NCBI GenBank assembly: GCA_043228905.1
Contig: JBHGNT010000016.1
Coordinates: forward strand, 13,144,001 to 13,208,000
Reading direction: 5' to 3'
Length of the DNA: 64,000 bases
From: Azolla caroliniana
Lineage: Eukaryota > Plantae > Polypodiophyta
The notes under the pieces: model-generated
The model's database searches: none
Seen by the model: the letters and a program-made list of their open reading frames with translations, nothing else
What the model was told of the DNA's origin: nothing
Program-made: the position numbers and the translations under genes
In this document: in pieces, positions 3,001 to 42,693 of the stretch
How the letters are laid out: the number at the start of each line of letters is the position of its first letter
How positions within the stretch are numbered: the stretch's first letter is position 1

Positions 3001-3150
3001 TTTAAGGTTCTCCATTTCTGCAACAAGGGTGAGATATTCTTCTGAGTTAATAGCAACCATGGTTTCAGGATGGTTACAAAGGAGGATAAGAGAGAGAGAG
3101 AGAGAGAGAGAGAATTCGAATCAAACTAAAAGATAAAAGATAGAGTGATG
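1..3150 (-). mobile_element. Degenerate Ty3/Gypsy retrotransposon (Tcn1/PEG10-like chromovirus), gag-PR-RT-RNaseH; continues off the window start
   Basis: Gag fragments 1912-3060 (PTKFDGSR; zinc knuckle CLYCGGPRHIAIHC), protease LLDTGA (1484-1885), [29 protein letters not shown] (626-997), RNase[11 protein letters not shown] (366-704); many stops and frameshifts. Confidence 0.9.
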
Positions 3151-6100
3151 GTTTGCGTTTCCCGAATCTCGATGAAGCTTTGCGTTTCTATCCAGAGGGG
3201 TCGAGATGGGCTTACAGTTTGCCATCCCGAACTTGAAGAGCATATTCAACGCGTAATGATGCTGGCTGATCAATATGCCTTCGGGGGTACGGATCACTTC
3301 GATCCTGAGGAAGTAATGAAGGTCTCCGAGATCCTTGATTTCAAACGATGCCGCAAGCTGAGACTTCACGCGGTGGATTTCGTCCAGATCGGCACCAACG
3401 ATGACTAAATCATCAACATATAATAGGAGACTAACCGGTCCGGGTTGACCTTGCCGAACAAATAGCGAAGAATATGATTTCGACGTTTTAAAGCCCATCT
3501 TGCGCAACTGTTATGTGATCTTCGCATTCCAGGCTCGCGGTGCTTGCTTAAGTCCGTACAATGACTTCTTCAGTTGGTAAACTACCGAGGTGTTTCATTT
3601 GGATAGAAATCCGGGGGGCTGTATCATGTACACCGGTTCCTCAAGATCACCTTGCAAGAACGCATTCTTTACATCCATTTGATGTAAGTGCCACCCCTTT
3701 GCCACAGCTATGGCTAGCAGAACACGGACAGTGGTCATCTTTGTGACAGGTGCAAAGGTCTCATCGTAATCGATGTCGTGTTGCTGCGCGTAGCCTTTCG
3801 CTACTAAGAGGGCCTTGTATCGATTGACGGAGCCGTCAGTATTGTATTTCATTTTATACACCCACCGACATCCGATCAGCTTCACACCCTTCGGTGCGTC
3901 AACCAAGTCCCATGTCTCGCTCTACGTTAAGGCGCGCATCTCTTCCTCCATCGCAGCACGCCAATTTGTGTGTCTCACCGCTTCTACATAGCTCTCCGGC
4001 TCACGCACTTCCGCCACTCGCGTCATATACGCATAATGGTGCGCCATGTATTCATTATACCTGTATCTCTTTACAGGGTTCTTTAGGCGGGTAGATCGAC
4101 GTAATTCGTGATTACTCAATTTCGCGACCTTTTCGGCTACTGTCAACCTCTTGCGTGGAGGTTCCTTTCCAGTTTGACCATGGTCAGACTCGCTCCGATC
4201 TGACTCGGGACTACCGAAGTCATATTCTGGCATTTTGTTCTTGCCCTTCTTATTATGCGGGAACCATCTCCTCGGTTCTTTACGCGGGGACATCACGGCC
4301 AAGTCTCCACTACTCACCGTCTCATCATCTAGTTGGCCATCTCGGCCCAACTCATCATTAGGCCCACTCAGCCGAAATGAGATCGGACCCTCTCTCAGAG
4401 CTCGAACATCTTCATCATGCGAAGGCATTACAGTCTCGCTGATTTCTTCTTCAGAAATCGGAATGGAGTCATGAGGTTCCGGAGGAGAAGGCAGGTACCA
4501 CTAAGCGGACTCGTCAAATACGACATCGCGGCTTACGCTTACTTCCTTTGTTTGGGGGTTATAGCACTTATACCCCTTTTGCTCGTCTGAATAGCTGACC
4601 AAGATACATTTTTCGGCCTTGGCATCTAGCTTCCTCCTCTTCTCCTTCGGCACGTGCACATATGTGATGCTGCCGAAAATCCTCAAGTGTGCCAAGTTCG
4701 GCTTCTTTCCGAAATACAGCTCATGTGGCAACACTCCTCCATTAGCAGAAGTCAGATTCTGCAGGTAGAAAACTGTCTTCATGGCTTCAACTGAATAGAA
4801 TTTTGGCATATGATTCTCTTCAAGCATTGCCCTGGCCGCTTCTTCAATTGTCTGATTCTTCCGCTCAGCCGCGTCGTTCTGTTACGACGTTTATCTACAT
4901 GAGAATTCGCGTCGAATTCGCTCCTTCTGTAGATAACATGTGACTTGGTCAGAGAAATACTCCTTCCCGCCATTGGACTGTAGGCATTTGATCTTACGCC
5001 CCGTTTCCCTTTCCACAAGGCTCTTCACCTTCAGGAAACATGCAAAGACTTCGCTCATCTTCTCAATCATGTATGCCCACGTGTGCCGAGTGAAGTCATC
5101 AATGAAGATTACAAAGTAACGACTTCCACCGAGACTCGCGTTCTGTGCCGGACCCCACACATCCGAATGGATCAAATCCAGCAGACTTCAACTACGATTG
5201 CGCTCATTGGGGAATGGAAGTCGATGTTGTTTTCCCATCTGACAAGCTTTGCAAACTTGGCCATTCTGGCCCCGAAACTTCGGCAAGTCGAAAACAATGT
5301 TCTTCGTCTGCATCTCACGAAGCCGTGGGAAATTTATGTGGCCGAACCGTTTGTGCCACAGGTTGATATCCGATTTGACCTTTTGTCCTTTCGCGTACAA
5401 AGCGGTTTCGGCTTGATTAGTGTCGAGGATAAACATCCTCCCTTCACGGCGCCCTTGCACGATCACTTTGCCTTCCTCTTCTATGAAGCAGCCGAGGTGC
5501 ATGAATCGAACTTGCATACCTTTGTCAACGATCTAACCGACCGACACCAAGTTCTTCGTTATTGTCGGGACGTGCAACACATTCATAAACTTCCCTTTCT
5601 ACCCGACGTGGCTGAGGGGAACTTCACCGACATGTTTGATGGTATGCGGGGTGTCATCTCCCATTTCAACAACCCCTCATGATTCCGGCTTCTCCAAGTA
5701 CGAGAACCATTCCTCGTGACTCGTCATATGATTTGACACTCCGGAGTCGACATACCACACCTCGGGTGATTTCGAGGTGTTCATGGACATTGGGTTGGCC
5801 TTATGCTTCATTATGAAGGCAGGGCCCGCTCCATTTCCGGCTCGTTCTGAGCCTTCCGCGTAGTGTGACTTATGACGCATTCCTGTGCCTATTCCGCTCG
5901 ATCCAGCTTTGTCTGAATCAACTTGTTTCTTCCAGGACTTGCTCTCCTTGTGGCCATTCTTGCCACAGTACCAGCATTCCGACACGGCCTTCTCTTGCCA
6001 ACTTCCGGCGCCGCCATGACTCCCCCTGCTTCCGGGGTGTTTGGAATTTCTTCTGGCATTTCGATTATGCCGTCCATTCTTCTCTTTTCGGCCGCCTACA

Positions 6101-6742: not shown

Positions 6743-6915
6743 ACATGTGGGTCATAAAGTACCCATTAACTACTCTACCTAGTACTTTAGATATTTTACA
6801 CATGTTTACATTTCTTGTACTCCGGTCCTTATGTTTTATGCCTATTTGCACACCCTCTTTCACACACATATCCACTCCTCTTTCTTCATATGACTAGGTT
6901 TCTTCACGACAACGT

Positions 6916-8917
6916 CGTATTCTACCACAAATATTGTATCTCTCGTCATAAGACAACCTTTGGTCGAGGTTATGTCATTAATTGTCCAAGATAAGGATGT
7001 CTTTACTTATTAGGCTGCTCTATGGTACCTGTTGAAGAAGTGTACCACATAGATGATTCAAACACATCAAACTATGTGACCGTACTATGGCACTACCAAT
7101 TACATCACGTAAACCATCAAACAATGATTCACATGGCCTGACAATGTATAACAATTGGTTTTACCCTTCCTCGAGAATCGAAACTATCCCTCTATTAATG
7201 GTGTATCTTTGGAAAACTCTCTAACTCTCCATGTCCTTCACATTCTATGACAACTACGAAACCCCTACAACTAGTGTACACACATATATATTTGGTCTTT
7301 TATCTACTCCATCGTTATATGGAAATGTATATTTCTTAACATTTATTGATCAATTTACTCATTTCACAATGGTCACTTTTCTAAAACAAAATCTACTGAT
7401 GAAGTCCTTGAAAAAATCAAAGCTATCAAAAATGTGTAACAAATCAACAAGATTTAACCTGTAACGCACTTTAATCAAATAAAGGTGGAAACTTCAAGTC
7501 CCAAAACTTCCAAACTTATTGCCAAAAGCATGGGATTCAATAACGGTTTACGATCCCTTATACACCTCAACACAATTCAAGCGTTGAATGGCAAAATCAG
7601 TTGTATATGGATGCAACTTGTTGCATGTGTGTCGTTGCAAACCTTCCCCGAACATATTAAGAAGAGGTTGTTTCAATTGTTTGTTATATATTCAATAGAA
7701 CATATGCACTCGTACCCTTAAACACTCGATCAAAATTAGATTATCATGGGGTTTCGTACAATAATCATTGGGTATGGCAAACCTCATGACTATAAGGGTT
7801 ATTGATTATATGACCCACAATCCAAAAGATTTATATTCAGTCGATGGGTGATATTTGATGAAGATAACCTAATATCTAATCCTTACCCACACCATGAACT
7901 TGAAAAGGTACAAGTCATAACCACCACATAATACTCATGTAACACCAAAATTGGGGCATGTTTAGTATGGTGGTTGTCTTGTAACTTTCCAAGTCCATGG
8001 TGTGGGTGAGGATGAGATATTAGGCTATCTTCATCAAGTATCACCCATTGATTGAACATAAATATTTTGTCTTTTGGGTCATACATTAAATAACCCTCAT
8101 AGCCATTATGTTTGTTTTAACCAAAGAATAAAGTGTAAAACATGTGATTATCTAACTTTGATTGGGTATCTAAGGGTACGTGTGCATATGTTGGACATCC
8201 TAATATGTTCAGGGAAGGTTTGCAATAGCGAGCATACAACGAGTGGCAATACCGGTTTCGATGTTGAGCCCTTGAATTTGTTTAGAGGGTATAAGGGATT
8301 GTAAACTTTTCTTGAATCCCATATTTTTGGCAATAGGTTTAGAAGTTTTCGATCTTAAATTTTCCAACATTATCTTGTTGAAGTGCTTTAAGAGTTAAGT
8401 CTTGTTAACTTTTTACAAGATTATGATAGGCCTTGATCACTAGATTTTCTCCTACAAAAAGTGAACATTGTGAAATGAGTAACGTTATTGATAAATTTTA
8501 AGAAATATACATTTCTAGATAGCGTTGGAGTTGATAAGGGACCACATCTATCTACGTGTACTAGTTGGAGAGGTTTAGTAGTTGATGTAGTATGTGAAAG
8601 AAATAACGAGTTAGAGAGGTTACCAAGGATACACCCTTCGCAAAGGGATAGTTTCAATTTTTAAGGAAGGGTGAACTAACTATTTTACGTTGTCGGGCCA
8701 TGTGAACCCTTGTTTGATGGTTTGCGTGATGTAGTCGGTAGTGCCATCATACGGTCATATAATTTGATGTGTCTGAATCATCTATAGGTGTGCATCGTCA
8801 ATAGGCACCACAGAGCAACCTAATAGGTAAAGGCATCCTTTTCTTGGATAATTAACGACATAACCTCGATTAGAGGATGTCTTATGACGAATGATACAAT
8901 ATTTGTAATAGAATTCG
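6916..8917. repeat. ~2-kb imperfect palindrome (two ~1-kb arms) of Copia GAG-pre-integrase/integrase sequence
   Basis: 6916 cgtattctaccacaaatattgtatc is the reverse complement of ~8895-8917. Matching continues inward to a centre near 7950. Translations 7231(+) and 8421(-) are homologous (GLLSTPSLYGNVYFLTFIDQFTHFTM vs GPLSTPTLSRNVYFLKFINNVTHFTM). Confidence 0.88.
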
Positions 8918-9239
8918 AAGTATGTATTTTATCATTTATCAGTTATTGACAAATATCAAGTTTTTTGCTATGTTGGGTATATAATAAATTTCATTAACTT
9001 CTGTAAAGAATCTAGTGTGATTCTGTGCAACGGAAAAAGTATGTGTGTGTGAATGAGAGAGAGAGAGTGTGTGTGAGTGAAAGAACACAAGTATACAGAA
9101 AACTAGAAATTTGTATTAACAAGAATGAGCAACAACAGTTACAAAGAAGAGGAGAATGTGCTTATGTCGTCATGTTCTCTCTATACTTTCTTACTACAAC
9201 TACCTCTTCAGAAAGATATGGAGACTTAATTGCCGACAA

Positions 9240-12766: not shown

Positions 12767-13009
12767 TGTGAAATGCTCTCAAGAATAGCCTCCCTTTCAT
12801 TATGTCTCAAGTTACATTTTATAGACTCTCTCTTAGCGTGGAGGGTGTTCTCCCGCTCCAATTAGCTCTACTAATTATGGGGCTTGGTGGGGGCCTAGTT
12901 TGGGTGTGGTGCATGAGGCTTGGTAGGGGCCTAATTTGGGTGTGGTCTATGTGTGGTGCATGGGGCTTGGTAGGGGCCTAATCTAGGTGTGGTCCATGTG
13001 ACCACCACA
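12767..13009 (-). repeat. 3' LTR of the 12767-17585 Gypsy
   Basis: Direct repeat of 17343-17585; adjacent to PPT (minus strand acaagggggaat). Confidence 0.95.
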
Positions 13010-13031
13010 ATTCCCCCTTGTAAAAAAAAAG

Positions 13032-16000
13032 TTACTGTGCAGTCGAAGCGCGACGAGGCGTGGACGACGGTTCCAGATGGGGGGATGACACGGGCGTGGG
13101 CGTAGGCATGAGTGTGGGCGGGGGCGGTGGTAGTTGATGGAAGGGCTTCATGCGAGACTGGTGAGCAAAGGTAGAGCGGTTGTTGGAGGCGCGGCGGAGC
13201 AGGTATGTAGTGTCGCGTATCTGCTTTTGAACTTCGAAGGGACCAATCCATCGGTGCATGAGCGATTCGCTGAGACCGCGACGACGGATGGGGAAGTAGA
13301 CGAGGACTTTGTCACCGACGTGGTATTGATGGTCGACACGGCCTATATCGTGTTGTCGTTTTTGGCGTAGTTGTGCCTGGTGTAGGTTGCTCGTGATGGC
13401 TTTGCGGAGGAGGGGCTGGAGTTGTTGTAGGTGGGACCACCAAGACACTGCGTCAGCGTGGAGTCGTGTGGTTGGTTGCGGGACTGCCACTTCTGGGGGT
13501 AAGCGCGGGTCCCTTCCGTAAAGGGCCCGAAATGGGCTAATGCGGGTAGAGGCTTGCACAGTTGTGTTGTAGGCATGCGTAACGAAGGGCAAGATTCGGT
13601 CCCAGGTTGAGTGCAGGGGATCGATGTAGGCTGAGATTTGTTGTTTTAAGGTTCGATTGAGGCGCTCCGTCAACCCATTCGTTTGCGGATGGTAGGGTGA
13701 CGTGAATAACTGTTGGATTCCTAGTTGTGTTGAAACGAGGCGTAGGAGCTCACCGTTGAACTGGGGTCCTCAATCGGACAAGATTTGGAGTGGGCAACCG
13801 TGGAGGAAGATGATTTTCTCCAATAGTTTGGAGGCGATGGTCATAGCCTTTGCATCTGGGATAGCGGCCGTCTCAGCCCAACGCGTCAAGTACTCGGTGA
13901 TGACGAGGATGAATTTGTTCCCTCCTTGTGACTCGGGAAAGGGGCCCATAATGTCCCATCCGACGATTTCAAATGGAGCTTGAACTTGTATCAGATGTAA
14001 GAGGCCTTGAGCCACTTGAGGTGATTTGATGGCCTGACATAAGTTGCATGCTTTGATGTAGGAGGCGACCTTGTGGCGTAGCCCAGGCCAATAGAATTTG
14101 CGACGAATTTTGTCGAGCACCTTATGAAGACCCAAGTGGCCGGACAACGGGTGATCATGGAAGAAACGAAGGTAAGACTGGCATAGTTGCTCAGGCACGT
14201 AGACTCGGGGTTCTTTGCCTACTTGACAAAAAAGTAGGACATTATCCTGGATCATGAATTGCTTGGTGAGGGATGATGTTGGTTCAGCTTGTAGGCGGTG
14301 GCAGATATCTTGGATTTGTTTGTCATGTTGTTGCATGTTGGCCATTTGGGACGAGGATATGGGGAAATCGATTGTGTTGGAGGTGATCTGGTTCGCCTGA
14401 AAGGATATGCGGGATAATCCATCGGCGACGATGTTTTGTGGACCATGGCGATAGCGCAGAGTGAATGTGTAATCCTGTAGCGCCAAAACCCAACGAAGTA
14501 AGCGGCCGGGTGGATGAGCCTTCTTTATGAGAGAGAGCAATGGCTGATGGTCGGTTTCGACTGATGTATTTGATCCGTGAAGGTATGGGTGGAAACGATG
14601 GAATGCCCAGACGATGGCGAGGAACTCTTTTTCAGTTGTCGAGTAATTTTGTTCAGCTTTGGTAAGTGACCGACTGATGTAGGCAATCGGGCAGAGTTGG
14701 TCGTTGTCGTCGGATTGGAGCAGGACCGCACCAAGGCCGACATTGGAGGCATCTGTCTGCAGATGGAAAGGCTTCGTGAAATCAGGGTGGGCCAGGAGGT
14801 CAGAGGCTTGGAGTGTTCTCTTGAGCTGCAGGAAGCTGGATTCGCAGGCTTCGGTCCACAGGAAGGGTGCGTCTTTTTGTAGGAGCGCGCGTAGTGGGGC
14901 TGACAGGTCGGCTAGCCGTGGGATGAAACGAAGAGAGAACGTGAGGAGGCCGAGGAGGCGTTGAAGCTGCTTGACTGTGGTGGGGCGTGGGAATTTTTGG
15001 ACTGCTTCTGTCTTTTGTGGGTCCATTTGTATTCCGTCGGAGGAGATGACGTACCCAAGGAAGCGGAGGCACGTACTACCCCATCGGCACTTCTTCCATT
15101 GCAGCTGCAATCGATAGCGTTGAACACAAGTTAGGACCTCCCGAAGGACTTGAAGGTGTTCTGCCCAAGTGCTTGTATGTACCAGAATATCATCTAGATA
15201 GACGATGACGACACGACGGGTGATGAGGTCATCGAAGATGGCATTGGCCATTCGCTGGAATGTGCTCCCCGCATCAGATAGGCCAAAGGGCATCCGTGTG
15301 AACTGAAAAATGCCTTTCCTAGTGCAGAATGCAGTTTTGTGGGCATCGTGAGGATTCATCGGGATCTGCCAATATCCCGAGGCTAGATCGAGGGAGGTGA
15401 AGTACTTTGATTTGCCAAGCTGGTCGAGGAGGTCATCGATACGAGGGAGAGGGTATCGGTCATGGGTGGTGACATGGTTCAGTTGTCGGAAGTCGACACA
15501 AAAGCGGTAAGAACCATCCCCTTTCTTTACCATGTGTGGCTCCGAGATCCACTCGCCCTTGGAAGGTGTGATAATCCCTTGTTGGAGCATAGTTTTGACG
15601 GTGTTGTCGATGCGCTCGTGGTCGAGAGGCGAGCGACGTCGGGGAGCTGCGTTGATGGGGCGGGCATTGCCTGTAGGAATCGTGTGGTGAATCGGAAAAC
15701 GGACCGAGGGAGGTTTTACAGGTGGTGTAGACAACGAGGGAAAGGTGGCGAGGAGCCGTCTGATGTCGTTGATGCGCTCCGCCAGTGATATCAGGTACTG
15801 TGTGTTGCTGATGTGGGTGGTATCCCGCGGAGTAGTGAAGAGCGCGATCGGAATGTGATTCGGGAGGATGAGCTGTTGTGCGGAGAAATCGAGACAGGCT
15901 TGACTATGGAGGAACCAATCACATCCCAAGGTGATTGGGAACAACTGGCGCGGGAGGACGTAGAAACAATGGTGGATCTGGGCGGAACTAATGGTGAGCA

Positions 16001-16316
16001 TGCACCTGACTTGCGTATGTGAGTGGTACACCCGTTGTTGGTCGCCGAAGAGGATTTTAATGGGCGGTGCGTGGCTCGTGGGAAGTTGTAATTGGGTGAC
16101 TAAATCTGCGCTGATGGAAGAGATGTTGCTGCCGGAGTCGAGGAGAACTTCTTGGGTCGTGTGCTGGAGGCGGGCGATTGTGGTACAAACGGGCGAAGTT
16201 GATGAAGTGGAGGCGTGGACGTGCAGGGGCGGCTCGATCGTGGGAGAAACGGGAGAAGTTGAGGACGTGGAGACGTGGACGTGCGGGGGCGGCTCTCCCT
16301 GCGGCACCCCGCGCAT
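13032..16316 (-). pseudogene. pol: Gypsy pol (PR-RT-RNaseH-INT with GPY/F motif), one premature stop
   Basis: 848-aa ORF with LLDSGS, YLDD, TDAS/TEKE/TDH and HHCC integrase. In-frame TGA at 13770-13772 (LSD*GPQ, probably CGA>TGA). Frame continues to 13032 (TNGLTERLNRT...WIGPFEV). No chromodomain. Confidence 0.93.
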
Positions 16317-17437
16317 TAGTTTTCCGGGAGCTCAGAGAGGGAGGCAGCGTCAGCTAATTGGACGTTCTGCTTCTGTTGGTGATTCTGCCACTTTCGGCAG
16401 TGACGCCGAATGTGGCCATAGTTGTTGCAGTAGAAACATTTGGGGCGTCCCTGGCTGTCTCGTTCGGGCAATGCACGCTTGGCACGTAATTGCGCGTTCT
16501 GGATGTCGATGTCCATGGGAGTGACGGCTGGTATAGTGTTTGTATGATCATGACTGAGATTACCTGGTGTGTGCATGTCGTGTGCGTCTACAGCTTCGAT
16601 GCGTTGGGCAGTGAGGATGGCTTCGTGTAGTGTCGTCGGGCCTTGATCGCGTACACGGCGGCGGAGGTCATGTCGTATACGTGGCCAGAAAAAAAACAAC
16701 TTCATGTCCTCCGACATGTTGGCGTCAGCCCGGCGTAGGATCTGCACAAAACGAACCGCGAACTGGGTGATGGGTTCGCGTGGTTGTTGGGTAATTGACT
16801 CAAGTTGTTGTAGGGCCGTATGGCGGGAGTCTTGATGAGCAAAATTCCGAATCATGGCTGCCCGTAACAGATCCCAGTCGTTGCGTGTCTCTTCGGGTTG
16901 TTGTACAAGCCATGTTGTCGCGATATTCTCGAGGAGTGTCTTCATCTCCATTGCCTTCCGAGGGTATGGCCACTGGTGGTAACTGGCCACCATTTCGAAA
17001 TGATCCAGCCAAGAGAGGATGTCTTCCGATGGTAGGCCGGAGAACGGTTTTGGGCGAACTCGAGAGTCCGGGAGATTTTGTTGTGGCTCGGATCGTGCTG
17101 AAAGAAAGGACAACATGGCTTGGTTAGTATGGTTAACTTGTAAAATGATGTTGGACAGAGCTTGAACCAGTTGGTCGATTGGCGATGTGGGCTGGTGTCC
17201 TTGATTGTGTTGTAGGAATTCTGGATTCATCGAGTTTCCGTTGCCGTCGTTGTTGTCGTGTTGCATCGTGGCGGGCGTTGTTGGGGTCGTGAGTTGGGGT
17301 GGCTTGGCCCGTCTTCTCCACCAAGATGTGAAATGCTCAAGATGTGAAATGCTCTCAAGAATAGCCTCCCTTTCATTATGTCTCAAGTTACATTTTATAG
17401 ACTCTCTCTTAGGGTGGAGGGTGTTCTCCCGCTCCAA
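16316..17437 (-). CDS. gag: Gypsy gag (true start probably near 17270, downstream of the PBS)
   Basis: RPKPFSG...WL retrotransposon-gag motif; CFYCNNYGHIRRHC zinc knuckle; ends in a TAATG overlap with pol. Confidence 0.88.
   Translation of the reverse strand: MERENTLHPKRESIKCNLRHNEREAILESISHLEHFTSWWRRRAKPPQLTTPTTPATMQHDNNDGNGNSMNPEFLQHNQGHQPTSPIDQLVQALSNIILQVNHTNQAMLSFLSARSEPQQNLPDSRVRPKPFSGLPSEDILSWLDHFEMVASYHQWPYPRKAMEMKTLLENIATTWLVQQPEETRNDWDLLRAAMIRNFAHQDSRHTALQQLESITQQPREPITQFAVRFVQILRRADANMSEDMKLFFFWPRIRHDLRRRVRDQGPTTLHEAILTAQRIEAVDAHDMHTPGNLSHDHTNTIPAVTPMDIDIQNAQLRAKRALPERDSQGRPKCFYCNNYGHIRRHCRKWQNHQQKQNVQLADAASLSELPEN
17308..17323 (-). promoter_or_regulatory. Primer-binding site, tRNA-Ala type
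   Basis: Minus strand TGGTGGAGAAGACGGG; the plus strand ...TCTCCACCA matches the 3' end of tRNA-Ala. Confidence 0.7.
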
Positions 17438-17585
17438 TTAGCTCTACTAATTATGGGGCTTGGTGGGGGCCTAGTTTGGGTGTGGTGCATGGGGCTTGGT
17501 AGGGGCCTAATTTGGGTGTGGTCTATGTGTGGTGCATGGGGCTTGGTAGGGGCCTAATCTAGGTGTGGTCCATGTGACCACCACA
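17343..17585 (-). repeat. 5' LTR of the 12767-17585 Gypsy
   Basis: Direct repeat of 12767-13009; followed by the ATAT TSD. Confidence 0.95.
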
Positions 17586-19174
17586 ATATGAACTAGTACA
17601 AATATGGCTGTTTATTCATGAAAATGACCCAAGTGTTTTAAATCTAGAGGAGATGATTAAGGGCACACATATGGGAAAAAAAGTTTAACTCGTGATGACT
17701 TGAATAAAAGCTCATAGAGAAAATAAGTGCTAAATTTTGCCTCAAGATGTTTAGGGTTTTGAAATAGTTAATGAGGAGAACAAAGATTGTGGTGAAGTCT
17801 TGATCCTAAAGTCTCAAAATAGTGAAACCCCAAATATATCTATTTCAATGATTAAGTAATCAAGGAAACGATCAAGGGTAATATTCATGTGTTGATGATA
17901 GGAGAAGCAAATTAAAAGGTTGTGTAGAAAATTTGTGAAACAAGATGACCAAGATAAATTGCATTTTCTTTTGGATATATGGTTTGAGTTTGCGATAATA
18001 TTTTTAAACCTCAACTCAATTCTGCTATTTGAGGGTACATAAATTTGTTGAACTTGATTTTAATAAATGATGAATTTTGTTTCAACATCTTATACTACAA
18101 GTGTGATTGACAATGATAGTGTTATACATCAAAGCAAATCTATGAAATTGGGTGATTTTATTTGTGTCGTCGTTGTGATGTAGGGTGCACATAGGATGAA
18201 ATAAGTTAAACTACAAACATCAAAAGGATGAATGTCAAAGCTAAGGTGTGGTATGAAGAACAAGTAACGTGTTGCATTAAAAAACAATAAAAAATTCTTA
18301 CTCAATTGGTAAGAGCTAGTAACATGAGTAAGAGGGGGAAAATAGAGCACGTAATTGGGATGAAAGCCTCTTTCATCCTATAAAAGGGTGAAGAGAGCTC
18401 ATTATTAGGGAGAAGAGAGAGAGAGAGCGAAGCAGAAATTTTGCCGAAATGAGAAATGAAGAAGCTAGGGTAGCAAATCAAGAGGGCGTGTAAGACTAGC
18501 ATTAACAAGAGGCAACGTGGTTTTCGATCACTAGAACATTGCACCAAAACTCGCTCGAAGACTCATGAACAAATCTTCTCCGATTTTTCTTTTCTTCGTG
18601 ATCTTCTTCTTCTTCACAACATACTTGCTATCTTAGGGTTTTATTTACATCATCTTCATGAAATTTAGGCTCTTAGTTTATGTTTCATTTTTGAAAAATT
18701 ACCATCGTTGTAATTGTTTACCCCAAAAACTTGTAATCCTTGTATTATAAAGGGAGTTTCCTTCTTAATCTACCAATTTTGGAGTTAATATTGTAAAATC
18801 CATTCGTACTCTCATGGTATTTAGGCTAATTATATGTTACAATCTTAATCTCGCACATAATTCATTGTTCGGCTCGTTGATACCTTCAACTCTAACGAGC
18901 CTTCAACTCTGAAGAGCGGTCAACTTTGAGGAGCCTTGTGACACGGCCACACCAACCGCTAACTCGGACGAAGCACGGATGACTGGTGTTGAATCCCTTG
19001 AAAGGGACCAAGGAGGTTACACGTATTTATACTCTGAGTCGAAGTACATGCATTAGAATATTCGTGAGAATATTCTAGAACCTTCTAGTTCTAGAACTTT
19101 CTAAAAACTCCTAGAACTTGAAATAGATAATCTACTAATAATATACTAAGATATATATAACATGATCATATATT

Positions 19175-19238: not shown

Positions 19239-19289
19239 CATCATGTTTGTGACATTATCCTCCCCTTTACGGCCGCCTTTTCGAAAGTG

Positions 19290-20580
19290 TAGTGTAGGGG
19301 TGAGGAGACTGGAACACCAACGTGACTGCCGCCTTTTCGAAAGTGTGGTGTAGGGGTGAGGAGACTGGAACACCAACGTGAGCGTGAGCGACTATGTGCG
19401 GTCCTCACCGGACAAAGGAACACCAAAATGAGTGTGAGTGACCATGTGTGGTCCTCATCGGAGACTGGAACGCCAACGTGAGTGAGCGACCATGTGTGGC
19501 CCACACCGGAGACACAAACACCAACATGAGTGAGAGACCATGTGCAGTCCTCACCAGGAATTGGAACACCAACGGATGTGAGTGAGGGGTGAGGAGACTG
19601 GAACACCAACGTGACTACCGCCTTTTCGAAAGTGTGGTGTAGGGGTGAGGAGACTGGAACACCAACGTGAGCGTGAGCGACTATGTGCGGTCCTCACCGG
19701 ACAAAGGAACACCAAAATGAGTGTGAGTGACCATGTGTGGTCCTCATCGGAGACTGGAACGCCAACGTGAGTGAGCGACCATGTGTGGCCCACACCGGAG
19801 ACACAAACACCAACATGAGTGAGAGACCATGTGCAGTCCTCACCAGGAATTGGAACACCAACGGATGTGAGTGAGGGGTGAGGAGACTGGAACACCAACG
19901 TGACTACCGCCTTTTCGAAAGTGTGGTGTAGGGGTGAGGAGACTGGAACACCAACGTGAGCGTGAGCGACTATGTGCGGTCCTCACCGAAGAAAGGAACA
20001 CCAAAATGAGTGTGAGTGACCATGTGTGGTCCTCATTGGAGACTGGAACGCCAACGTGAGTGAGCGACCATGTGCGGCCCACACCGGAGACATGAACACC
20101 AACATGAGTGAGCGACCATGTGCAGTCCTCACGAGGAACTGGAACACCAACGGATGTGAGTGACCATGTGCGGCCCTCACCAGAGACACGAACACCAATG
20201 GGCGTCAGCGACCATGTGTGGTCCTCACTAGAGACACGAACACCAACGGGCGTGAGCGACCATGTACGGTCCTCACCGAAGACACAAACACCAACGGACG
20301 TGAGCAACCATGTGTGGTCCTCACCAGGAACTGGAACACCAACGGATGTGAGCAACCATGTGCGGTCCTCACCGGCAACTGGAAACCAGCAGGTGTGAGA
20401 GGCCATGTACAATCCTCACCGAAGACGTGAACACCAATGGGTGTGAGCGACCATGTGCGGTCTTCACCGGAGATAGGAACACCAACGGGCGTGAGCGACC
20501 CTGTGCGGTCCTCACCAGGAATTGGAACACCAACGGGCATAAGCGACCTTGTGCGGTCCTCACCAGGAACGGGAAAACTT
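19290..20580. repeat. 48-bp tandem array with a 289-bp higher-order repeat (about 3 copies)
   Basis: Unit ~ccatgtgcggtcctcaccggagactggaacaccaacggatgtgagcga (16-aa periodicity in the ORF track); ORFs ending at 19609 and 19898 are near-identical, 289 bp apart. Confidence 0.92.
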
Positions 20581-21095
20581 GATGTCGATGAAGGCCAGGC
20601 AAAGTAGTGTTGATGATGACACCAAGAGGTGTTGAAGACAATGATTTTGAGGAAGTGTCTCTAGAAGCAATGACTGTGACTATGGCAATGATGGAAACAG
20701 AGAAATAGATGAAGAGGATAAGAAACACAAAGATCAAGATGTTGAGGATAAAAAGAACACAAAGACAAAGATATGGAGGATGATAGAATACACAATGACA
20801 AGGACGAAGATGATAAGAAACACATAGATAGAGATGAAAATGGCAGGAAACACAGGGAGAAGGATGACAACGACAATAAACGCAGAGATAGGGACGTGGA
20901 AGACGATAAGAAGCGCAAAGATAGGGATGATGATGATAAGAAACTAAACGATAGAGACAACGATGAGAATAAACTAGGAGATAGAGATGACGAGGAAGAT
21001 AGGAAACAAAGGGATGCTGATGACGGTAACTATGGAAGCAATAACGATGACAATGGTAACTCTAGAAGCAAGGGAGATGACGAAGATGGGTGATG
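20580..21095. repeat. Purine-rich low-complexity degenerate ~30-bp repeats
   Basis: Recurring gatgacga..gataagaaacacagagat units giving D/K/R-only translation. Confidence 0.75.
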
Positions 21096-21174
21096 CTTCT
21101 AGTTGGAAGGGATTCAAATTGTCACGAACACACAAATTGCTAATTGGATGAAGCACGGATGACAACGCTATGAG

Positions 21175-21863
21175 TAGCAATGGGCCCGGTTTCGGCTCAA
21201 ACCGAAACAAACCAAAAAACCGTGACTTAACAGTTTATAGGTTCAAAGATAAATAAACGATTTGGTTTAGTTTCAAATGTTACTAATCGGTTTCAATTTG
21301 GTGCGGTTCGGTTTTGAATTTATCGGTTTATCGGCTTATCGGTTTCTATTTATGTGGTTCGGTTTAAAGGTTTAAAGGTTTAGAGGTTTAGAGGTTAAAA
21401 AATACTCAAAAATATTCTCTATAGGCTCTAACTTTCAACTTTTAATTTTAAACTCTTGTTTTAACTTATTAAATATTATATGTATTATATGTAGAGTCTC
21501 CTTTTCATTTATGATGATCAAATTTATGATTAGTATGATGACCAAATTTATGATAAGTATGATGACAAATTTTATGATGAGTATCATGATTTTCTCACAC
21601 AAATTTATAATAAGTATGATGATTAATATCAATAAAAAATGGTTTGGTTTGGTTTGGTTTTGATTTATGATGAACCGGTTTGGTTTGGTTTGGTTTTAAA
21701 TTTTTCGTAAACGGTTTGGTTTCTCCTATTCTTTAAACGGGTTGGTTTAACGGTTTGGTTTAAATGGCTTCATAAATTTTAAAATAGTTTGGTTCGGTTT
21801 TTATTATTAATAAATGGTTTGGTTTGGTTTCAAGGCCAAGAAATCGAACCGGGCCCATTGCTA
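21175..21863. mobile_element. hAT-family MITE inserted in the 5' LTR
   Basis: 17-bp TIRs TAGCAATGGGCCCGGTT / AACCGGGCCCATTGCTA; 8-bp TSD gctatgag/gctacgag; subterminal AAACCG/CGGTTT repeats. Confidence 0.93.
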
Positions 21864-22429
21864 GCTACGAGGAACTTAAAGAAGCTAGGAATGACATTAG
21901 AGAATGAAGACAAAGATGAAGAACGAGACAAGATGGAATTGAACAAGAATACTAGATTGATGTGTCAATGTCTGGTGTTGAATCCCTTGAAAGGAACCAA
22001 GGAGGTTACAAGTATTTATACTGTGAGTTAAAGCACATACATTAGAATATTCGAGAGAATATTTTAGAACCCTCTAGAACCTTCTAGTTCTAGAACTTTC
22101 TAAAAACTCCTAGAACTTGAAATAGATAATCTACTAATAATATACTAAGATATATATAACATGACCATATATTTGGATGTGTTGGTTAGAACACAACACT
22201 TGACTATGTACAAAAGGTTAAGAGTTCAAATCTTGTCATCATGTTTGTGACACCTTGGACACGAAAGACTCTTTGACTCTAACCTACGTTTGACTTTGTC
22301 TTACCTTCGACTCAGGGATACATTTTACTCTAACTTATATTCCACTCTAGGTTACATTCGACTTTGCCCTACCGTCGACTCCATTGTGGAGCCTTTGAAT
22401 TTGAGGAACTTTCAACTCTGTGTCGTCCG

Positions 22430-33612: not shown

Positions 33613-34629
33613 CATTGAAGGAGACCTAGATGAGGCTCTAGAGATCCCTGAGGAAAATGCAACTATTGCACAAATTAAAGCATTTAAGAAATGAATCAAG
33701 GGGCAAGGAAAGTAATGCATTGGCTATCACTTAGCATCTCAGATTCGATGCTTGGACACATACAAGATGTTATGGTTCCAAAAGAATCTTGGGACAGTTT
33801 AGTAAAACTGTTTGCAGTGAACACAAATGCTAGAAAGCTTCAATTGAAGACTGAGCTAAATACCTTGGAAAAGGTAAGATGTTAGTGAATGACTATGCTC
33901 TAAAAATAAAGGGCATATGTGAATCATTTGCTTCTATTAATGTGAAGGTAGAAGATGATGATAAGGTGGAAATATGCTTAAGAGGCTTAGGACCTCAATA
34001 TAAAAGCCTCAAAACATCTATTCTCACAAGGGATAGCATCCCAAGTTTTCCAGATCAGGTTTCAATGCTTGTAGTGGAAGAAAGAAATCAGATGGATGAT
34101 GTAAACAAAGGAAACTTTGAGAGTGAGGGGCAAGCCCTCTACAATAGTGCTGGAAGAGGCCATGGAAGAGGCCATGGAAGAATTGGTGCTAGAACCAACA
34201 ACAATTATCAAGGAAGAGGACAGCAGGTTGTAAGTGGAAGAAACAACATCAAAGGTAGGGGGAGCAATCGAGGTAGAGGTAAGCAAACTTATTTGAATAA
34301 TGATGGTTGTTGGTATTGTGGAAAACCAGGCCGTACACAAGCTAAATGCTATAAAAAGCAAAATGATGAGAAAAGAGGGAAGTGACAGCAAAATAATTAT
34401 GCCTCAACTAGTGAGGACTGTGATAAAGATGGTGCATTTGTGGTGCAACATGAAACAACAACAATGGATGAATGTTCACAGAGATGCAATGAAGAGTGTA
34501 TGTGGTATGTAGATTTTGGGGCATCTAATCATATGATAGGACATGCAAACTGGTTTGAAAGTCTAAGAGAACCAGATATTCCTGGTTATGTACAGACAAG
34601 TGATTGTCATGAAGACATACATTTTGGCC

Positions 34630-34692
34630 TTACAAGGATTCGAGCCCAAAACGTCTTGGTCTATATGTTAGACCTTCAACCATTATAATAAC
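34630..34692 (-). pseudogene. tRNA-like A/B-box segment
   Basis: Minus strand TATTATAATGGTTGAAG ... GGGCTCGAATCC. Confidence 0.5.
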
Positions 34693-34750
34693 ATATATGA
34701 TGTATAGTTATAATAAATGTATTATTAGTTATTACAAGATATTTAGAGTA

Positions 34751-34783
34751 TTCTAGAACATTCTAGAATATTCCAGAACATTC
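34751..34783. promoter_or_regulatory. Heat-shock element array (7 alternating nGAAn/nTTCn units)
   Basis: TTCtaGAAcaTTCtaGAAtaTTCcaGAAcaTTC, ~100 bp upstream of the LTR TATA. Confidence 0.7.
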
Positions 34784-35193
34784 TATAGTATTCTAAAACA
34801 TTCTAGGATATTCCATGATTATATTAAATATCATAAATATCTAAAATATTCTAGAACATTCTAGAATACTCCATAAGGACCTATAAATAGGTGTCTATTC
34901 ATTCATCACAACTCATTCGGTTCAAACTGTCGAGACTTGAGAATAGGAGAGAGAAAGATAAGATGACAATAGAAGGTATAGAGAGAGAGAGAGAGAGAGA
35001 GAGAGAACATTAGAAATGGAAAGAGAGTTTATATTATAAGAGAGCAAGGATTACAAAGAGTAGGCTAAGGGCCTACAAACTGTGTCTATTCATTCATCAC
35101 AACTCATTCTATTCAACACCAGTTTGTAGCCCCTTAGCCTACTCTTTGTAATCCTTGCTCTCTTATAATATAAACTCTCTTTCAATTTCTAGT

Positions 35194-35251
<58 letters not shown>

Positions 35252-38200
35252 CCTTCTATTGTCATCTTATCTTTCTCTCTCCTATTCTCAAGTCTCGACA
35301 GTGATAATACTACTCACCAAATAGAGCATGTTGGAGATATCCCATTCTGGGAAGAAAAAGGAAAAACAAAATATACATTGAATGTTATCCATGTGCCAAA
35401 CCTTACAAAAAAACTGATTTCTGTTGGACAGATAGTGGAGCAAGGAATGCAAGTTAAGTTTAAGAAAAGTGGATGCTTTATAGAGAAACAGGGCAAGCTT
35501 ATTGCGAAAGGAAAACAACAAGGAAGGATGTTTGTGTTAGATGTGGATATGCCTAAAAAGATTACAGCCATGTTTGTAGAAGGAATGAGTGTAATCTCAA
35601 ATGTGGAAATGTGGCATAAAAGAATCGGTCACATAAGTATGCAAACCTTCAAAAATATGTTGAGGAAAAATGTTGTGGTTGGACTACCTAAGTTGAAAGA
35701 TTGTGAGATGAGCAAAATATGTGAAGAATGCCAATATGGAAAGCAAAACAGGTTACCTTTCCCTCATGAAAGACATGTAAGCAAAATTTTGTTGGATTTG
35801 GTACATACAGATGTATGGGGACCAACAAAAAATGCATCAATTAGTGGATGTAAGTTTTATGTAACATTTATTGATGATTGCTTAAGGAAAACATGGGTTT
35901 ACTTCATGAAAGAAAAAAGTGAAGTATTTGATTGTTTTTGTAAGTTTAAATGCATGGTAGAAAAGCAGGCTGGAACTAGAATAAAATGTTTAAGATCTTA
36001 CGAAGGAGGACATTACTTCTCAAATGAATTTTCTGATTTTCTATGCAATCAAGGAATAAGAAGACAGTTCACATGTAGATATACTCCACAACAAAATGGA
36101 GTTGCTGAGAGACAAAACAGAACTTTGGTGACCATAGCAAGGGCTTTAATGACAAAAAAAAGAAGCCATTGTATTACTGGGCAAAAGCTGTAAACACAGC
36201 AAATTATATTCTAAATAGATGTATAACATTTGGAGTGCATGAAGTAACTCCTGAAGAATGTTTCTATGGCGGGAAGCCTAGTTTAAAACACTTAAAAGTG
36301 TTTGGATGCCTTGCTTATGTTCATGTACCTACTGAAGTGAGAAGTAAGCTTGATCCACAAGCTGAAAAATGTATTTTTGTTGGATATTCAAAGGAGCAAA
36401 AAGGGTATAGATGTTATAACCCTTTGACAAAAAAGATTGTAGTAAGTCAGGATGTAATATTTGATGAGTTGGGCAGTTGGTACAGCCCAAAATAAAATGT
36501 AGAAACTTATGAAGACAATGAAAATGAAGACAGGGATAAATCTGAAAATGTAAGAGATACCCACAAAGATGGAAAACAATGTTGGACATCAAAGTTCAAC
36601 ATCAATAGAATGTATAGGACCATCAAAAAACTCTAGTAGTAAATTTGATTCAAATGCATGGAGTGGAAAACATGCAAGACATAAAAAATATGATGATAAA
36701 AAGGGAAAACAGAAAATGCCAGAATATGAAATGCTTGATGATGGGTCTAGAAACATGGAAGATGTAGATTCAGATACATCATTGAATAATGATCTTGGTA
36801 TAGGAGCCTTGAAAATCCCTAGTATGGAAAAGGCAATGAAAGATGCAAATCATAAACTGAGAAGATCAGATAGAGAGAAAAAAACAGTTAAAAGATTTGG
36901 TTATGATACATACATGGCTATGCATTATGCATATATGTCTAAAGTGGTACAAATCCCTGATCCAAATAATTTTGATGAAGCAAAATCTGATAAGAAATGG
37001 GTGAATGCAATGCAAGAAGAAATAGATGAATTGGTTGAAAACAGAACATGGGATTTGGTAAAGTTACCGAAAGGAAAAAATGTTGTAGGTTGCAAATGGG
37101 TCTACAAGACAACATAAAGCAAGACTTGTGGCAAAGGGATATACCCAAATGCATGGAATTGATTATGATGAAACATTTGCACCGGTTGCAAAGATGGCAA
37201 CATTGAGAACACTACTTGTTGTGAGTGCAGCCAAAAGATGGGTTCTACACCATATGGATGTAGAAAATACTTTTTTACATGGTAACTTGGAAGAGGAAGT
37301 ATACATGTGTCAACCACCAGGTTTTGAAGATAAGAGGCATCCAGAATATGTATGCAGACTGAAAAAGGCTCTCTATGGATTGAAACAAGCACCAAGGGCA
37401 TGGCATAAAGAACTTTCAGAATCTCTGAAAAATTTTGCTTTCAAAATGTCAAAGGTTGATCCATCATTGTATGTAAAAAGGATAAATGATTGCATTGTTG
37501 TTATTTTGATTTATGTTGATGATTTAATCATTGGAGGTGATTCCATGGATGAAATTAGCAAGCTGAAAAAAAATCTTGAAATGCAATTTCGTATGAAGGA
37601 TTTGGGAGAGCTGAGATACTTACTTGGCATTGAGATGATCAAATTTGAAAGTGGTATATATATGTTGCAAAAATAGTATGCAACAACTATGTGGAAGAAG
37701 TATGGTATGCTTGGATGCAAACCTATTGGTGTACCACTAGATAAGAACTGCAAATTGAGGGCTGATTTGGGAGCCAAAATAGAATATGTAAACATGCATA
37801 GGTCTATGGTGGGCAGCCTCATATATTTGACTATAACTAGGCCTGATTTGAGTTATGTAGTTCGATTAGTCAGCCAGTTTATGCAACAACCAACAAAGTC
37901 ACACTTGGACTGCATTAGAAGAATCTTGAGGTATGTAAAAGCTACTTAGAACTACGGACTGTTTTACAGGACTGGTCTGGACATAAAGTTGGAAGGATAT
38001 ACAAATGTTGATTGGGCTAGAAGCCAAACTGACAGAAGATCCACAAGTGGATATATGTTTACATTGGGAAGTGCAGCTATTTCATGGAGTAGCAAGAAAC
38101 AAGCTATAATTGTTGCATTATCAAATACTGAAGCTGAATATAGAGGAGCTGCAATAGCTACCTATGAAGAGGTATGGATCAAAAGACTGCTTGCTAATTT

Positions 38201-39055: not shown

Positions 39056-40253
39056 TCTCGTGAAGATTTTCGGTAATGGTGTGAAAATCACATAAAACGT
39101 ACAAAATCGAGTATAAATCACATAAAACAATAATAGTGAAGTATCTAAGTACAAAATGATGGAGGTCTTCAAGAGCTTTCAAATGCACTTTGTTACACGA
39201 TAAACAGACAACTAGATGTCACGATATAAGGGTATAAAGTTTGTGAAAGGAAAAGAGAAAATTGTGAGATATCCCACATAGGCACGACAAATACGACTCT
39301 CATCATATATAAGGTACAACAAAAGCTATTATCTTTGTGTCTATGTGTTCAACATAGAGAGTTCAAGGTAACTTGAACTAAGAGTGCAGGTGGCCTAGCC
39401 ACTCATAAAGGTTTTGGCCAACCAAAACGGAACTGGACGGTAACCGGCGATCGATAATCCGGCGGTATCGGCATCCGACGGAGCCGGCGAGGCGGCGGCG
39501 AAGCTAGTGATCAGGCATCTGACGGGTGGCGAGACGATGGCGAAGTCGGTGACCTAGCGGAATCGGCATCTCACGGAGCCGGCGAGGCGGCGGTATCGAC
39601 ATCCGGCGAACCAGCATCATCCGGCAACCGATGGTAACCGGCGACAACCGGCATCCGGCAAACCGGCGACCAAATTAATAAATATATATATATATATATC
39701 ACATATATATACACAATGAGGGCAAGTGAGGATTCGAACCTTGCACCTCCTAGTTAAGAGTCAATAGGCTTACCACTAAGCCATGACATTTAGTTAAATT
39801 TATATTTCTATCATTATACTTTTACATGGAAATTCTCATACATGAGAGCTAAAGTGAGTGACATGGTTATCATGCACCACATGTAATACATGAGCGCCAA
39901 ATGGCACACATGCATTTTATGCATGTCTTGTACCCTCACATGCATCATATGCATGAGAGCGTCTATAAAAGAAGGGATGAAAAAGAAGAAGGGTTATGCT
40001 ATTTTTGGTTATGAAATTAAGAAGAGAATTCGTTATCGAATTGATCGTGTAACTTGTTTCTTAAAATCTAAAATCAAGAGTTCAATCTTAATCTTTCTCA
40101 ATCTAAGTCAAGCGTTTAATCTTAATCTCTTTCTCTCTCTCAATCTATCCTAAATACTTTCTCGCTAAGCTTGGTGCGAACTTCGATCCTTCCGGTCCAG
40201 AACCCCGGCCGTTCCGCCTCACGATCCGCGCCTAGTGACGGATCTTCACGACA
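39056..40253 (+). mobile_element. Solo LTR, 4-bp-TSD group, carries a tRNA-like module
   Basis: 12-bp terminal inverted repeat t(c/g)tcgtgaagat / atcttcacgaca; TSD ACGT; interrupts Copia RT; CCGGCG-rich block 39430-39670; TATA at ~39964. Confidence 0.85.
39722..39786 (-). pseudogene. tRNA-Lys(CTT)-like segment with consensus A and B boxes
   Basis: Minus strand TGGCTTAGTGGTAAGCC (D-arm GGCTT/AAGCC), loop CT-CTT-AA, GGTTCGAATCC; no acceptor stem. Confidence 0.75.
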
Positions 40254-42183: not shown

Positions 42184-42642
42184 TGTTACAGGAATGACCA
42201 TATAATATTCCGTGGTGAGAATTTACCGTAGCGTTCTATACACGTGGATAAGTGTGAGGGTTAAACGAGAGTGTAAAGAAGGGGAGGATTACTTTTAATC
42301 CTCGCGATTGAAACAACCCATTAGGCCAAGTGTGAACTTGCTTGGGGGCCTTGGGTCTCGCTATAAATATGAGGCCTAGCTACCCTCATGTCATCATCTC
42401 TTGACTACGTTGAGACTCTGTTACGTGGTTGGTCAACTCTTGTAGCGAGCGCGCCAGCACCAGGCATGACTCGACACCACGACGGTGGTATGGGACACCG
42501 ATCGAGGATCGATTCCGTCTCGATCCCTTCACTCGAGGGTGGTCGGGTGGATCAACACCCTCCCCTTCTTTCTCTCTGTCCTTTCTTATTTCATATATAT
42601 TATATCCTTATCATATGCTTACATTAGAACATCACTCTAACA
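42184..42642 (+). mobile_element. Solo LTR of the same family as the 42897-49155 chromovirus, opposite orientation
   Basis: TGTTA...TAACA; TSD catgt/catgc within the hAT transposase; 5' part is the reverse complement of 42897-43035 and 3' part of 48951-49155. Confidence 0.88.
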
Positions 42643-42693
42643 CATGCAGATGCTCTTTCTTTAAATATTTAACTCTTAAATCCTTCTAGGTAA

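What the first reader, a model, noticed from the sequence alone, without database searches (positions are those of the whole stretch)
21107..21988. Tf1-type self-priming signal in a non-autonomous plant LTR element
Seen: there is no TGG tRNA PBS. On the element (minus) strand, 2 nt after the 5' LTR, the sequence is TTGAATCCCTT (21107-21117). It is the exact 11-nt complement of AAGGGATTCAA (21978-21988), which starts ~32 nt downstream of the LTR TATAAATA, where transcription should begin. Known: S. pombe Tf1 primes reverse transcription with the first 11 nt of its own mRNA. Inference: this is a self-priming, protein-less element, plausibly mobilised by Tcn1-like chromoviruses such as the one at 1-3150.
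Basis: partly seen in the sequence, partly recalled or inferred. Interest (0 to 1): 0.75.

Follow-up and report, generated by a model that had tools for sequence, protein, structure and literature searches.

The report
Protein-less retrotransposon with self-priming signal
A plant jumping element with no retrotransposon genes carries the same fold-back signal as its gene-bearing Tcn1 relatives, so it likely starts copying itself from its own RNA instead of a tRNA and likely borrows their enzymes, a priming trick already known from yeast Tf1 and predicted for plant Tcn1.

Summary
Observation confirmed. The minus-strand element (22252-18939; CAAGG target duplication, polypurine tract, no gag/pol homology) has an 11-nt PBS two bases after the 5' LTR. 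It exactly complements the 11-mer 32 nt after TATA (4 of 3000 shuffles). Hundreds of contigs in three organisms list no variant across PBS and LTR end, with truncated tables. Of 79 metagenome loci with Tcn1-like gag, 43 could be tested: 29 show the same design exactly and 8 with one mismatch, using 13 different PBS/primer pairs. This is the Tcn1 (Tf1/sushi) self-priming signal, kept by compensatory change. The transcription start, the cleavage and the helper were not shown. The broken Tcn1 at 1-3150 has a different, 12-nt primer. Primer type and tract point to another Tcn1 clade (L068/L072), while U3 resembles the first. This copy has a MITE in its 5' LTR and a deletion in its 3' LTR. Self-priming is published for Tf1 and predicted for 83% of 1500 plant Tcn1 elements. 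I found no paper on a non-autonomous plant rider, but this scan noted similar elements in other genomes. A modest new variant.

The parts
22253..22257 (-). Target-site duplication, 5' copy (CAAGG)
21120..22252 (-). 5' LTR, TGTCAC...GTGACA; 1133 bp as it lies, about 436 bp not counting the MITE and one copy of its target duplication
   Evidence: U3 plus start of R is 259/272 identical to the 3' LTR
22088..22100 (-). Heat-shock-element-like GAAnnTTCnnGAA in U3 (three such matches in the 3' LTR); motif meaning recalled
   Evidence: 4 of 2000 base shuffles of U3 hold one
22013..22020 (-). TATA box TATAAATA
   Evidence: the same 31-33 nt offset to the primer in 28 of 28 related loci that include the TATA region
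21978..21988 (-). Predicted self-primer (first 11 nt of the RNA)
   Evidence: exact complement of the PBS; pair probability 0.94-1.0 for nt 2-10 in the native sequence with the MITE in place
21970..21977 (-). Post-primer context CACCAG(A/T)C, the predicted RNase H cut side; this 5' LTR has A where the 3' LTR has T
   Evidence: C[AG]CCAGT[CT] follows the primer in 25 of 29 exact-match loci
21175..21863 (.). hAT-like MITE inserted in R-U5 of this copy; 15-bp terminal inverted repeats, 8-bp target duplication (21871-21864 / 21174-21167)
21118..21166 (-). U5 end stem (21166-21160 pairs with 21124-21118) and the 2-nt spacer AT
   Evidence: pair probabilities 0.68-0.87
21107..21117 (-). Primer-binding site, 11 nt, 2 nt after the LTR
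   Evidence: no variant listed at 21101-21126 in runs X1, X5, X10 (40 of 59 rows shown)
21062..21102 (-). 9-bp leader hairpin just after the PBS (possible packaging signal; untested)
   Evidence: p 0.96-1.0; listed variants at 21100 and 21098 would give G-U pairs
20707..21081 (-). Degenerate 30-bp pyrimidine-rich repeats
19291..20564 (-). 48-bp tandem array (25 copies) with a younger 289-bp triplication; nearly stop-free frames, no Pfam match
   Evidence: similar translated repeats in 18 unnamed ENA ORFs
19255..19268 (-). Polypurine tract AAAGGGGAGGATAA abutting the 3' LTR
   Evidence: 17 nt across tract and LTR start are identical in L068 and L072
18939..19254 (-). 3' LTR, 316 bp; about 112 nt of R-U5 missing between two GTCAT-like words; ends GTGTCA
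18934..18938 (-). Target-site duplication, 3' copy (CAAGG)
3113..3124 (-). PBS of the separate, broken Tcn1-like element at 1-3160: 12-nt type, different from this element's; its 5' LTR is almost entirely absent

Best explanation
This is one damaged copy of a multi-copy LTR retroelement family that has no gag or pol, likely primes minus-strand DNA synthesis with the first 11 bases of its own RNA, and is likely copied and integrated in trans by Tcn1-type (Tf1/sushi) chromovirus proteins. Shown: LTRs, 5-bp target duplication, polypurine tract, exact primer/PBS complement at TATA+32, the family in three organisms, and the same design with different letters in autonomous Tcn1-like loci. Inferred: transcription starts at 21988; the RNA is packaged by a helper's Gag; nt 1-11 pair with the PBS; the helper's RNase H cuts between A11 and C12 (the CAA|CACCAG context) as in Tf1; reverse transcriptase extends the 11-mer; the tract primes the plus strand; the helper's integrase inserts the DNA. 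The helper is more likely the clade with 11-nt primers starting AAGG (L068, L072, L085, L071, L086) than the 12-nt clade of the element at 1-3150, but this is unsettled.
For: Exact complement, 4 of 3000 by chance. The duplex forms in the native RNA despite the MITE. Of 79 Tcn1-gag loci, 50 had an LTR-end + 2 nt + TTG motif upstream of gag and 43 of these had enough upstream sequence to test: 29 exact 11-12-nt complements, 8 with one mismatch, 6 with two or more. The 29 use 13 different PBS 11-mers, on average 4.6 letters apart, and all 28 with a TATA region have it 31-33 nt before the primer. No variant is listed at 21101-21126 among 512, 594 and 167 contigs of X1, X5 and X10, against 12 of 20 positions at 21081-21100; none at 18979-19010. 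Tract plus LTR start are identical to L068/L072. 11-nt AAGG primers form one gag clade (100/100). In X5, seven contigs follow this element's leader but leave it into an LTR end and a different PBS that reads as that of autonomous L071 (table 7, agreement 0.63). There is no gag/pol homology in the internal region (best tblastn E 0.007 over 26 aa among 212 proteins; gag HMM negative). Literature: PMC7175516, PMC6317226.
Against: No transcription start, RNA structure or cDNA was observed. No autonomous element with this LTR was found among the 79 loci (the best 80 of 209, chosen by closeness to another gag). U3 aligns best with the 12-nt clade (L015 and kin), largely through TTCTAGAA arrays, which conflicts with the AAGG-clade assignment. 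The third duplex of the Tf1 'pretzel' is not supported in the related loci (own partner -3.4 against foreign -3.0 kcal/mol). The spacer is AT, not GT/GA/GC as in all 50 loci. The variant tables were cut (19 and 37 rows hidden), and the 80% likeness filter favours conserved copies. The loci come from few assemblies and are not independent. Host tRNAs could not be searched.
Confidence: 0.85

Rival explanations
1. The element is self-primed but is mobilised by the 12-nt-primer Tcn1 clade to which the copy at 1-3160 belongs, or by any co-resident Tcn1, since the cut context is shared.
For: U3 aligns over about 190 nt with L015 and shares heat-shock-like arrays with that clade (5 of its 6 gag-tree loci were scored; 4 have 4-5 matches, L011 has no U3 in its contig), whereas L068, L071 and L072 have none. 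CAA|CACCAGTC is common to both clades.
Against: Primer length, the AAGG start and the polypurine tract match the other clade. The window's own copy has stops in gag and has lost its 5' LTR.
Confidence: 0.3
2. The PBS is bound by a host tRNA fragment or other small RNA, and the complement in R is a by-product.
For: Half-tRNA priming exists in plant copia lineages (PMC6317226, passages). The host tRNA set could not be searched (no genome held; no tRNA in the window).
Against: 13 different PBSs are each matched by their own R at a fixed TATA offset, which an outside primer would not produce. The PBS does not start with TGG.
Confidence: 0.04
3. The family is a dependent of self-priming TAR-type copia elements rather than of Tcn1.
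For: TAR is the other plant lineage predicted to self-prime (89% of 203). The window holds many copia pieces.
Against: LTR end, 2-nt spacer, TTG start, post-primer context and tract all match loci with Tcn1-type gag and chromodomain integrase. TAR sequences were not compared directly.
Confidence: 0.03
4. The family is not wholly non-coding: the 48-bp array encodes a repeat peptide.
For: The unit is a multiple of three; one minus-strand frame has an ATG-initiated 188-codon ORF; 18 unnamed ENA ORFs match its translation.
Against: All three minus-strand frames are nearly stop-free; 50-, 47- and 143-bp units break frame; variation by codon position is 0.10, 0.14 and 0.18 over 10 distinct units. 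The ENA ORFs switch between frames and some run through the tract into the LTR. No Pfam match.
Confidence: 0.08

Closest known systems
Plant Tcn1 chromoviruses (Tf1/sushi group; Neumann et al. 2019, PMC6317226: passages and Additional file 5 read)
   Same: [quoted passage not shown]
   Different: No gag, pol or chromodomain; about 2.7 kb against 5.5-9.4 kb; internal region of tandem repeats; spacer AT instead of GN.
Tf1/Tf2 of Schizosaccharomyces pombe (through PMC7175516, PMC4600332 and bioRxiv 2022.12.06.519325, passages only; the Levin papers were not read)
   Same: An 11-nt primer at the predicted RNA start pairs with the PBS; a second duplex at the U5 end.
   Different: Tf1 is autonomous and its mechanism is shown by experiment. 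Here nothing is shown at RNA level, and the third duplex of the three-duplex structure is not supported.
TRIM and LARD non-autonomous LTR elements (TRIM definition from PMC6934838 passages; LARD size recalled)
   Same: LTRs, PBS, polypurine tract and target duplication without coding capacity; depends on a helper.
   Different: TRIMs are under 1 kb with 100-250-bp repeats and a tRNA PBS; LARDs are over about 4 kb. This element lies between them in size and has no tRNA PBS.
TAR copia lineage (Houba, Osr-1; PMC6317226)
   Same: Predicted self-priming in plants.
   Different: The cis signals here match gypsy Tcn1 loci; TAR sequences were not compared.

Membership tests
Tf1/sushi-type self-priming (works like) | PBS 0-5 nt after the 5' LTR, not complementary to a tRNA 3' end | tested here: met
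   2-nt spacer, starts TTG, no TGG; internal tRNA fragments not searched
Tf1/sushi-type self-priming (works like) | At least 10 nt of the PBS complementary to the 5' LTR | tested here: met
   11 of 11; 4 of 3000 shuffles
Tf1/sushi-type self-priming (works like) | Primer/PBS pairing kept through sequence change | tested here: met
   In autonomous relatives: 13 PBS types in 29 exact loci of 43 testable. Within this family only invariance was seen
Tf1/sushi-type self-priming (works like) | Primer is the 5' end of the transcript | not testable with these tools
   Inferred from TATA+32 here and +31-33 in 28 of 28 loci; only contigs, no raw RNA reads
Tf1/sushi-type self-priming (works like) | Three-duplex 'pretzel' structure | tested here: inconclusive
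   Central duplex and a U5-end stem predicted. In 24 distinct loci duplex A: own -5.9, foreign -3.8, shuffled -4.4 kcal/mol; duplex B: own -3.4, foreign -3.0
Tf1/sushi-type self-priming (works like) | RNase H cleavage after the primer | not testable with these tools
   Only the conserved context CAA|C[AG]CCAG (25 of 29 loci)
Tcn1 chromovirus clade (membership) | Gag-PR-RT-RH-IN with chromodomain, placed by RT phylogeny | tested here: not met
   No coding homology in 19255-21106. The element is a likely dependent, not a member. The relatives carry DUF4939 gag and chromodomain pol; no tree with named Tcn1 references was built
Tcn1 chromovirus clade (membership) | 5-bp target-site duplication, TG...CA ends | tested here: met
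   CAAGG on both sides; TGTCA...TGACA/TGTCA
Non-autonomous LTR retrotransposon | Two LTRs, PBS, polypurine tract, target duplication, no gag/pol, many copies | tested here: met
   1383 contigs laid on the 3' LTR in X1
TRIM | Under 1 kb, 100-250-bp repeats, tRNA PBS | tested here: not met
   3314 bp as it lies, LTR about 436 bp, no tRNA PBS (definition)
TAR copia lineage | Copia-order pol or shared LTR with a TAR element | not tested
   No TAR sequences were fetched

The most novel reading that the evidence does not exclude
This is an undescribed satellite lineage of plant Tcn1 chromoviruses, spread over several related species, that has reduced itself to a portable self-priming module (TATA, 11-nt primer, CAA|CACCAG cut site, PBS, hairpin, tract), swaps primer/PBS pairs between subfamilies, and combines a heat-shock-type promoter from one Tcn1 clade with priming signals from another, so that the primer duplex marks which helper it parasitises.
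Probability: 0.25. Interest if true: 0.55.

Novelty: new variant of a known kind. Interest (0 to 1): 0.32.

Why it matters
The sources I read present plant self-priming as a prediction, from a single complement per element. Here the signal comes with a fixed TATA offset, a conserved cut context and 13 co-varying primer/PBS pairs, which is firmer comparative support. An abundant non-coding family that keeps the signal would show that the primer duplex works in trans on an RNA that makes no protein, and its many copies make 5' RACE and strong-stop DNA tests cheap. It does not change the known mechanism. Annotation tools that require a tRNA PBS or protein domains would likely miss such families.

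Tried and rejected
No whole genome is held for this window, so there was no copy census, partner search or host tRNA search. Sequencing runs: no RNA holder listed; X17 (RNA is a guess) gave 2 low-depth contigs, which say nothing on expression. The pattern TATA..ATTCAACACCAG in viral contigs gave 8 loci, none with a matching PBS or similarity to the window: chance. The gag alignment found no relatives in viral or prokaryotic genome contigs. blastn of the whole element against the 79 loci found no family copy, only short matches at the tract/LTR start and the TTCTAGAA arrays. Rfam: 2 matches at E about 1, rejected. The third pretzel duplex was not supported in relatives. Leader and R-U5 alignments to the 29 loci singled out no partner. 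Of the 79 loci, 29 lacked the LTR-end motif (many are contigs that end close to gag; the rest were not examined) and 7 more had too little upstream sequence; these 36 were left out of the 43 tested. In one search the L031 row, and the L011 U3 length, are indexing artefacts and were ignored. Contig depths (about 300,000 at the primer and 57,000 at the PBS in X1, against tens for many single contigs) suggest very many copies but are not used as a copy number. Literature searches for a non-autonomous self-primed plant element found none; Additional file 1 of PMC6317226 (per-element PBSs) was too large to read and subscription journals are not covered. Considered and rejected: that the short 3' LTR is the family form, because loose ends in all four runs continue as in the 5' LTR.

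Full report
Anatomy. The element lies on the minus strand from 22252 to 18939, inside an older gypsy-like sequence, between two CAAGG copies. The 5' LTR (22252-21120) starts TGTCAC and ends GTGACA. The 3' LTR (19254-18939) follows the purine tract AAAGGGGAGGATAA. U3 and the start of R are 259 of 272 identical between the LTRs; the U5 ends are 36 of 44. The 5' LTR carries a 689-bp MITE with 15-bp inverted ends and an 8-bp target duplication, which is hAT-like (classification by duplication length is recalled). The 3' LTR lacks about 112 nt of R-U5: in all four runs laid, 43 to 59 contigs leave it at 18979 and continue as the 5' LTR does. So this copy is damaged at both ends, and the family LTR is about 436 bp.

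The observation. Two bases after the 5' LTR, 21117-21107 is the exact reverse complement of 21988-21978, which begins 32 nt after the first T of TATAAATA. Four of 3000 dinucleotide shuffles of the LTR held any such 11-nt complement. Folding the native RNA from 21988, with the MITE in place, gives the duplex with pair probabilities of 0.94 to 1.0 for nt 2-10, a U5-end stem beside it and a 9-bp hairpin just after the PBS.

Coding capacity. The 1.85-kb internal region consists of degenerate 30-bp repeats and a 25-copy 48-bp array with a 289-bp triplication. Its three long frames have no Pfam match. Against 212 retroelement proteins the best tblastn hit was E 0.007 over 26 residues, and a gag HMM found nothing. 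One frame of the array holds an ATG-initiated 188-codon ORF, but all three minus-strand frames are nearly stop-free and off-length units break frame. Eighteen unnamed ENA ORFs resemble its translation. Of the eight read, three run through the same tract into an LTR start and several switch frame. I read these as gene calls on sister elements.

The family. Sixteen of 19 listed runs hold part of the stretch, under four organism codes and two metagenome labels; most shares are small and only five runs were laid. On the 3' LTR 1383, 1058, 1508 and 607 contigs were laid for X1, X2, X5 and X10. On the PBS region 512, 594 and 167 were laid for X1, X5 and X10. No variant is listed at 21101-21126 (leader start, PBS, spacer, LTR end), against 12 of the 20 positions 21081-21100; none is listed at 18979-19010 around the primer copy. 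Both tables were cut (40 of 59 and 40 of 77 rows shown), so rare variants may be hidden, and the likeness filter favours conserved copies. Seven X5 contigs follow the leader to 21110 and then show an LTR end with a different PBS, which reads as that of autonomous locus L071 (agreement 0.63); their R could not be seen.

Autonomous relatives. The element at 1-3160 has a DUF4939/Ty3-capsid gag. Its best named RT matches are amphibian elements (57-73% among the listed hits), and unnamed metagenome proteins reach 93% and carry chromodomains. This fits the Tf1/sushi-Tcn1 group; no tree with named references was built. An alignment of 24 gag relatives fetched 79 loci, the best of 209. Fifty had T[GA]ACA + 2 nt + TTG within 700 nt upstream of gag, and 43 had enough upstream DNA to test: 29 showed an exact 11- or 12-nt complement 117-270 nt upstream, 8 had one mismatch and 6 had two or more. 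The 29 use 13 different PBS 11-mers that differ from each other by 4.6 letters on average. All 28 with the TATA region in the contig have TATA 31-33 nt before the primer, and C[AG]CCAGT[CT] follows the primer in 25 of 29. The element has the same offset (32), primer end (CAA) and context (CACCAG). These loci come from few assemblies and share ancestry, so 13 types is the fairer count. An outside primer such as a tRNA would not make R track the PBS in this way.

Mechanism. By analogy with Tf1, whose first 11 bases pair with the PBS and are cut off by RNase H between bases 11 and 12 (PMC7175516, passage), the RNA would start at 21988, fold onto the PBS inside a helper's particle, be cut at CAA|C and be extended; the tract would prime the plus strand. 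Each of these steps is inferred. Tf1 needs three duplexes (bioRxiv 2022.12.06.519325, passage). Here the duplex at the U5 end has moderate support in the relatives (own partner -5.9, foreign -3.8, shuffled -4.4 kcal/mol; best tenth in 9 of 24). The third has none (1 of 24), although the element's leader can pair with its 3' LTR U5 (-7.4) and less well with the 5' one (-3.5).

Which helper. The copy at 1-3160 has stops in gag, has lost nearly all of its 5' LTR and has a 12-nt PBS at 3124-3113; it groups with 12-nt loci. The 11-nt primers beginning AAGG form a separate clade of five rows in a 26-row gag tree (100/100). Two of them, L068 and L072, share 17 identical bases across tract and LTR start with the element and score best on the pre-tract region. 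Against this, U3 aligns best with the 12-nt clade, largely through TTCTAGAA arrays that read as heat-shock elements. No autonomous locus with this LTR was found. The family may be a mosaic, or may use any Tcn1 particle.

What is known. Neumann et al. predict self-priming for 83% of 1500 plant Tcn1 and 89% of 203 TAR elements (PMC6317226, passages and Additional file 5). Novikova et al. saw no such signal in SM-Tcn1 (PMC2864245, passages). Passages of PMC4600332, PMC6934838 and PMC3350952 were also read. Five searches found no description of a non-autonomous self-primed plant element; coverage is open-access only, and Additional file 1 of PMC6317226 could not be read. Earlier notes of this scan describe similar small self-priming elements in other genomes; I did not check them, and they are not evidence. 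The host is inferred from its retroelement content to be a non-seed land plant.

Verdict. The feature is real and well explained as a non-coding dependent of Tcn1-type chromoviruses that keeps their self-priming signal. Confidence in the mechanism 0.85; a new variant of a known kind; interest 0.32.

Noticed in passing
L068, L071, L072, L085, L086, L087 (between TATA and primer); window 21990-22015: In the AAGG-primer clade a 9-10-nt copy of the PBS lies in U3 just before the primer (0-7 nt in the other 23 loci; 5 nt in the element). In the 3' LTR part of the RNA it could fold over the second copy of the primer and keep it from competing for the PBS. Untested.
   Followed up: partly
window 22088-22100, 19068-19101, 34751-34866; L009-L017 group: Heat-shock-element-like GAAnnTTCnnGAA arrays: 11 of the 12 plus-strand matches in the window fall in these Tcn1-type LTRs, which suggests heat-inducible transcription (motif meaning recalled).
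   Followed up: partly
window 34606-35300: Solo Tcn1-type LTR (81% to the 3' LTR of L034) inserted in a copia element with a GTGAT duplication; its R-U5 is rearranged into a long inverted repeat (34926-35302) with AG/CT microsatellites.
   Followed up: partly
window 12767-17602, minus strand: 4.8-kb gypsy element with 99% identical 260-bp LTRs, open gag (373 aa) and pol (853 aa and 245 aa) frames and a TGG-type PBS; size and PBS recall the Selgy group; apparently young.
   Followed up: no
window 42184-46700, minus strand: Degenerate chromodomain-bearing gypsy element whose 850-bp 3' LTR has 140-bp inverted arms (93%), inserted in a hAT transposase (DUF659) fragment.
   Followed up: no
window 6912-8921: 2-kb near-palindrome (74% over 2080 nt), probably a foldback or MITE-like DNA element.
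   Followed up: no
window 19032 and 22030 region, runs X1, X2, X5: 13-29 contigs per run share the TATA-to-primer stretch but have a different U3: a second subfamily or the missing partner.
   Followed up: no
P0213, P0215, P0226: Unnamed ENA ORFs that run through the same 48-bp array and purine tract into different LTR starts: likely sister non-coding families in other samples.
   Followed up: partly
window 39720-39790 and 47750-47800, minus strand: tRNA-like stretches inside repeats (read by eye; ARAGORN called none).
   Followed up: no
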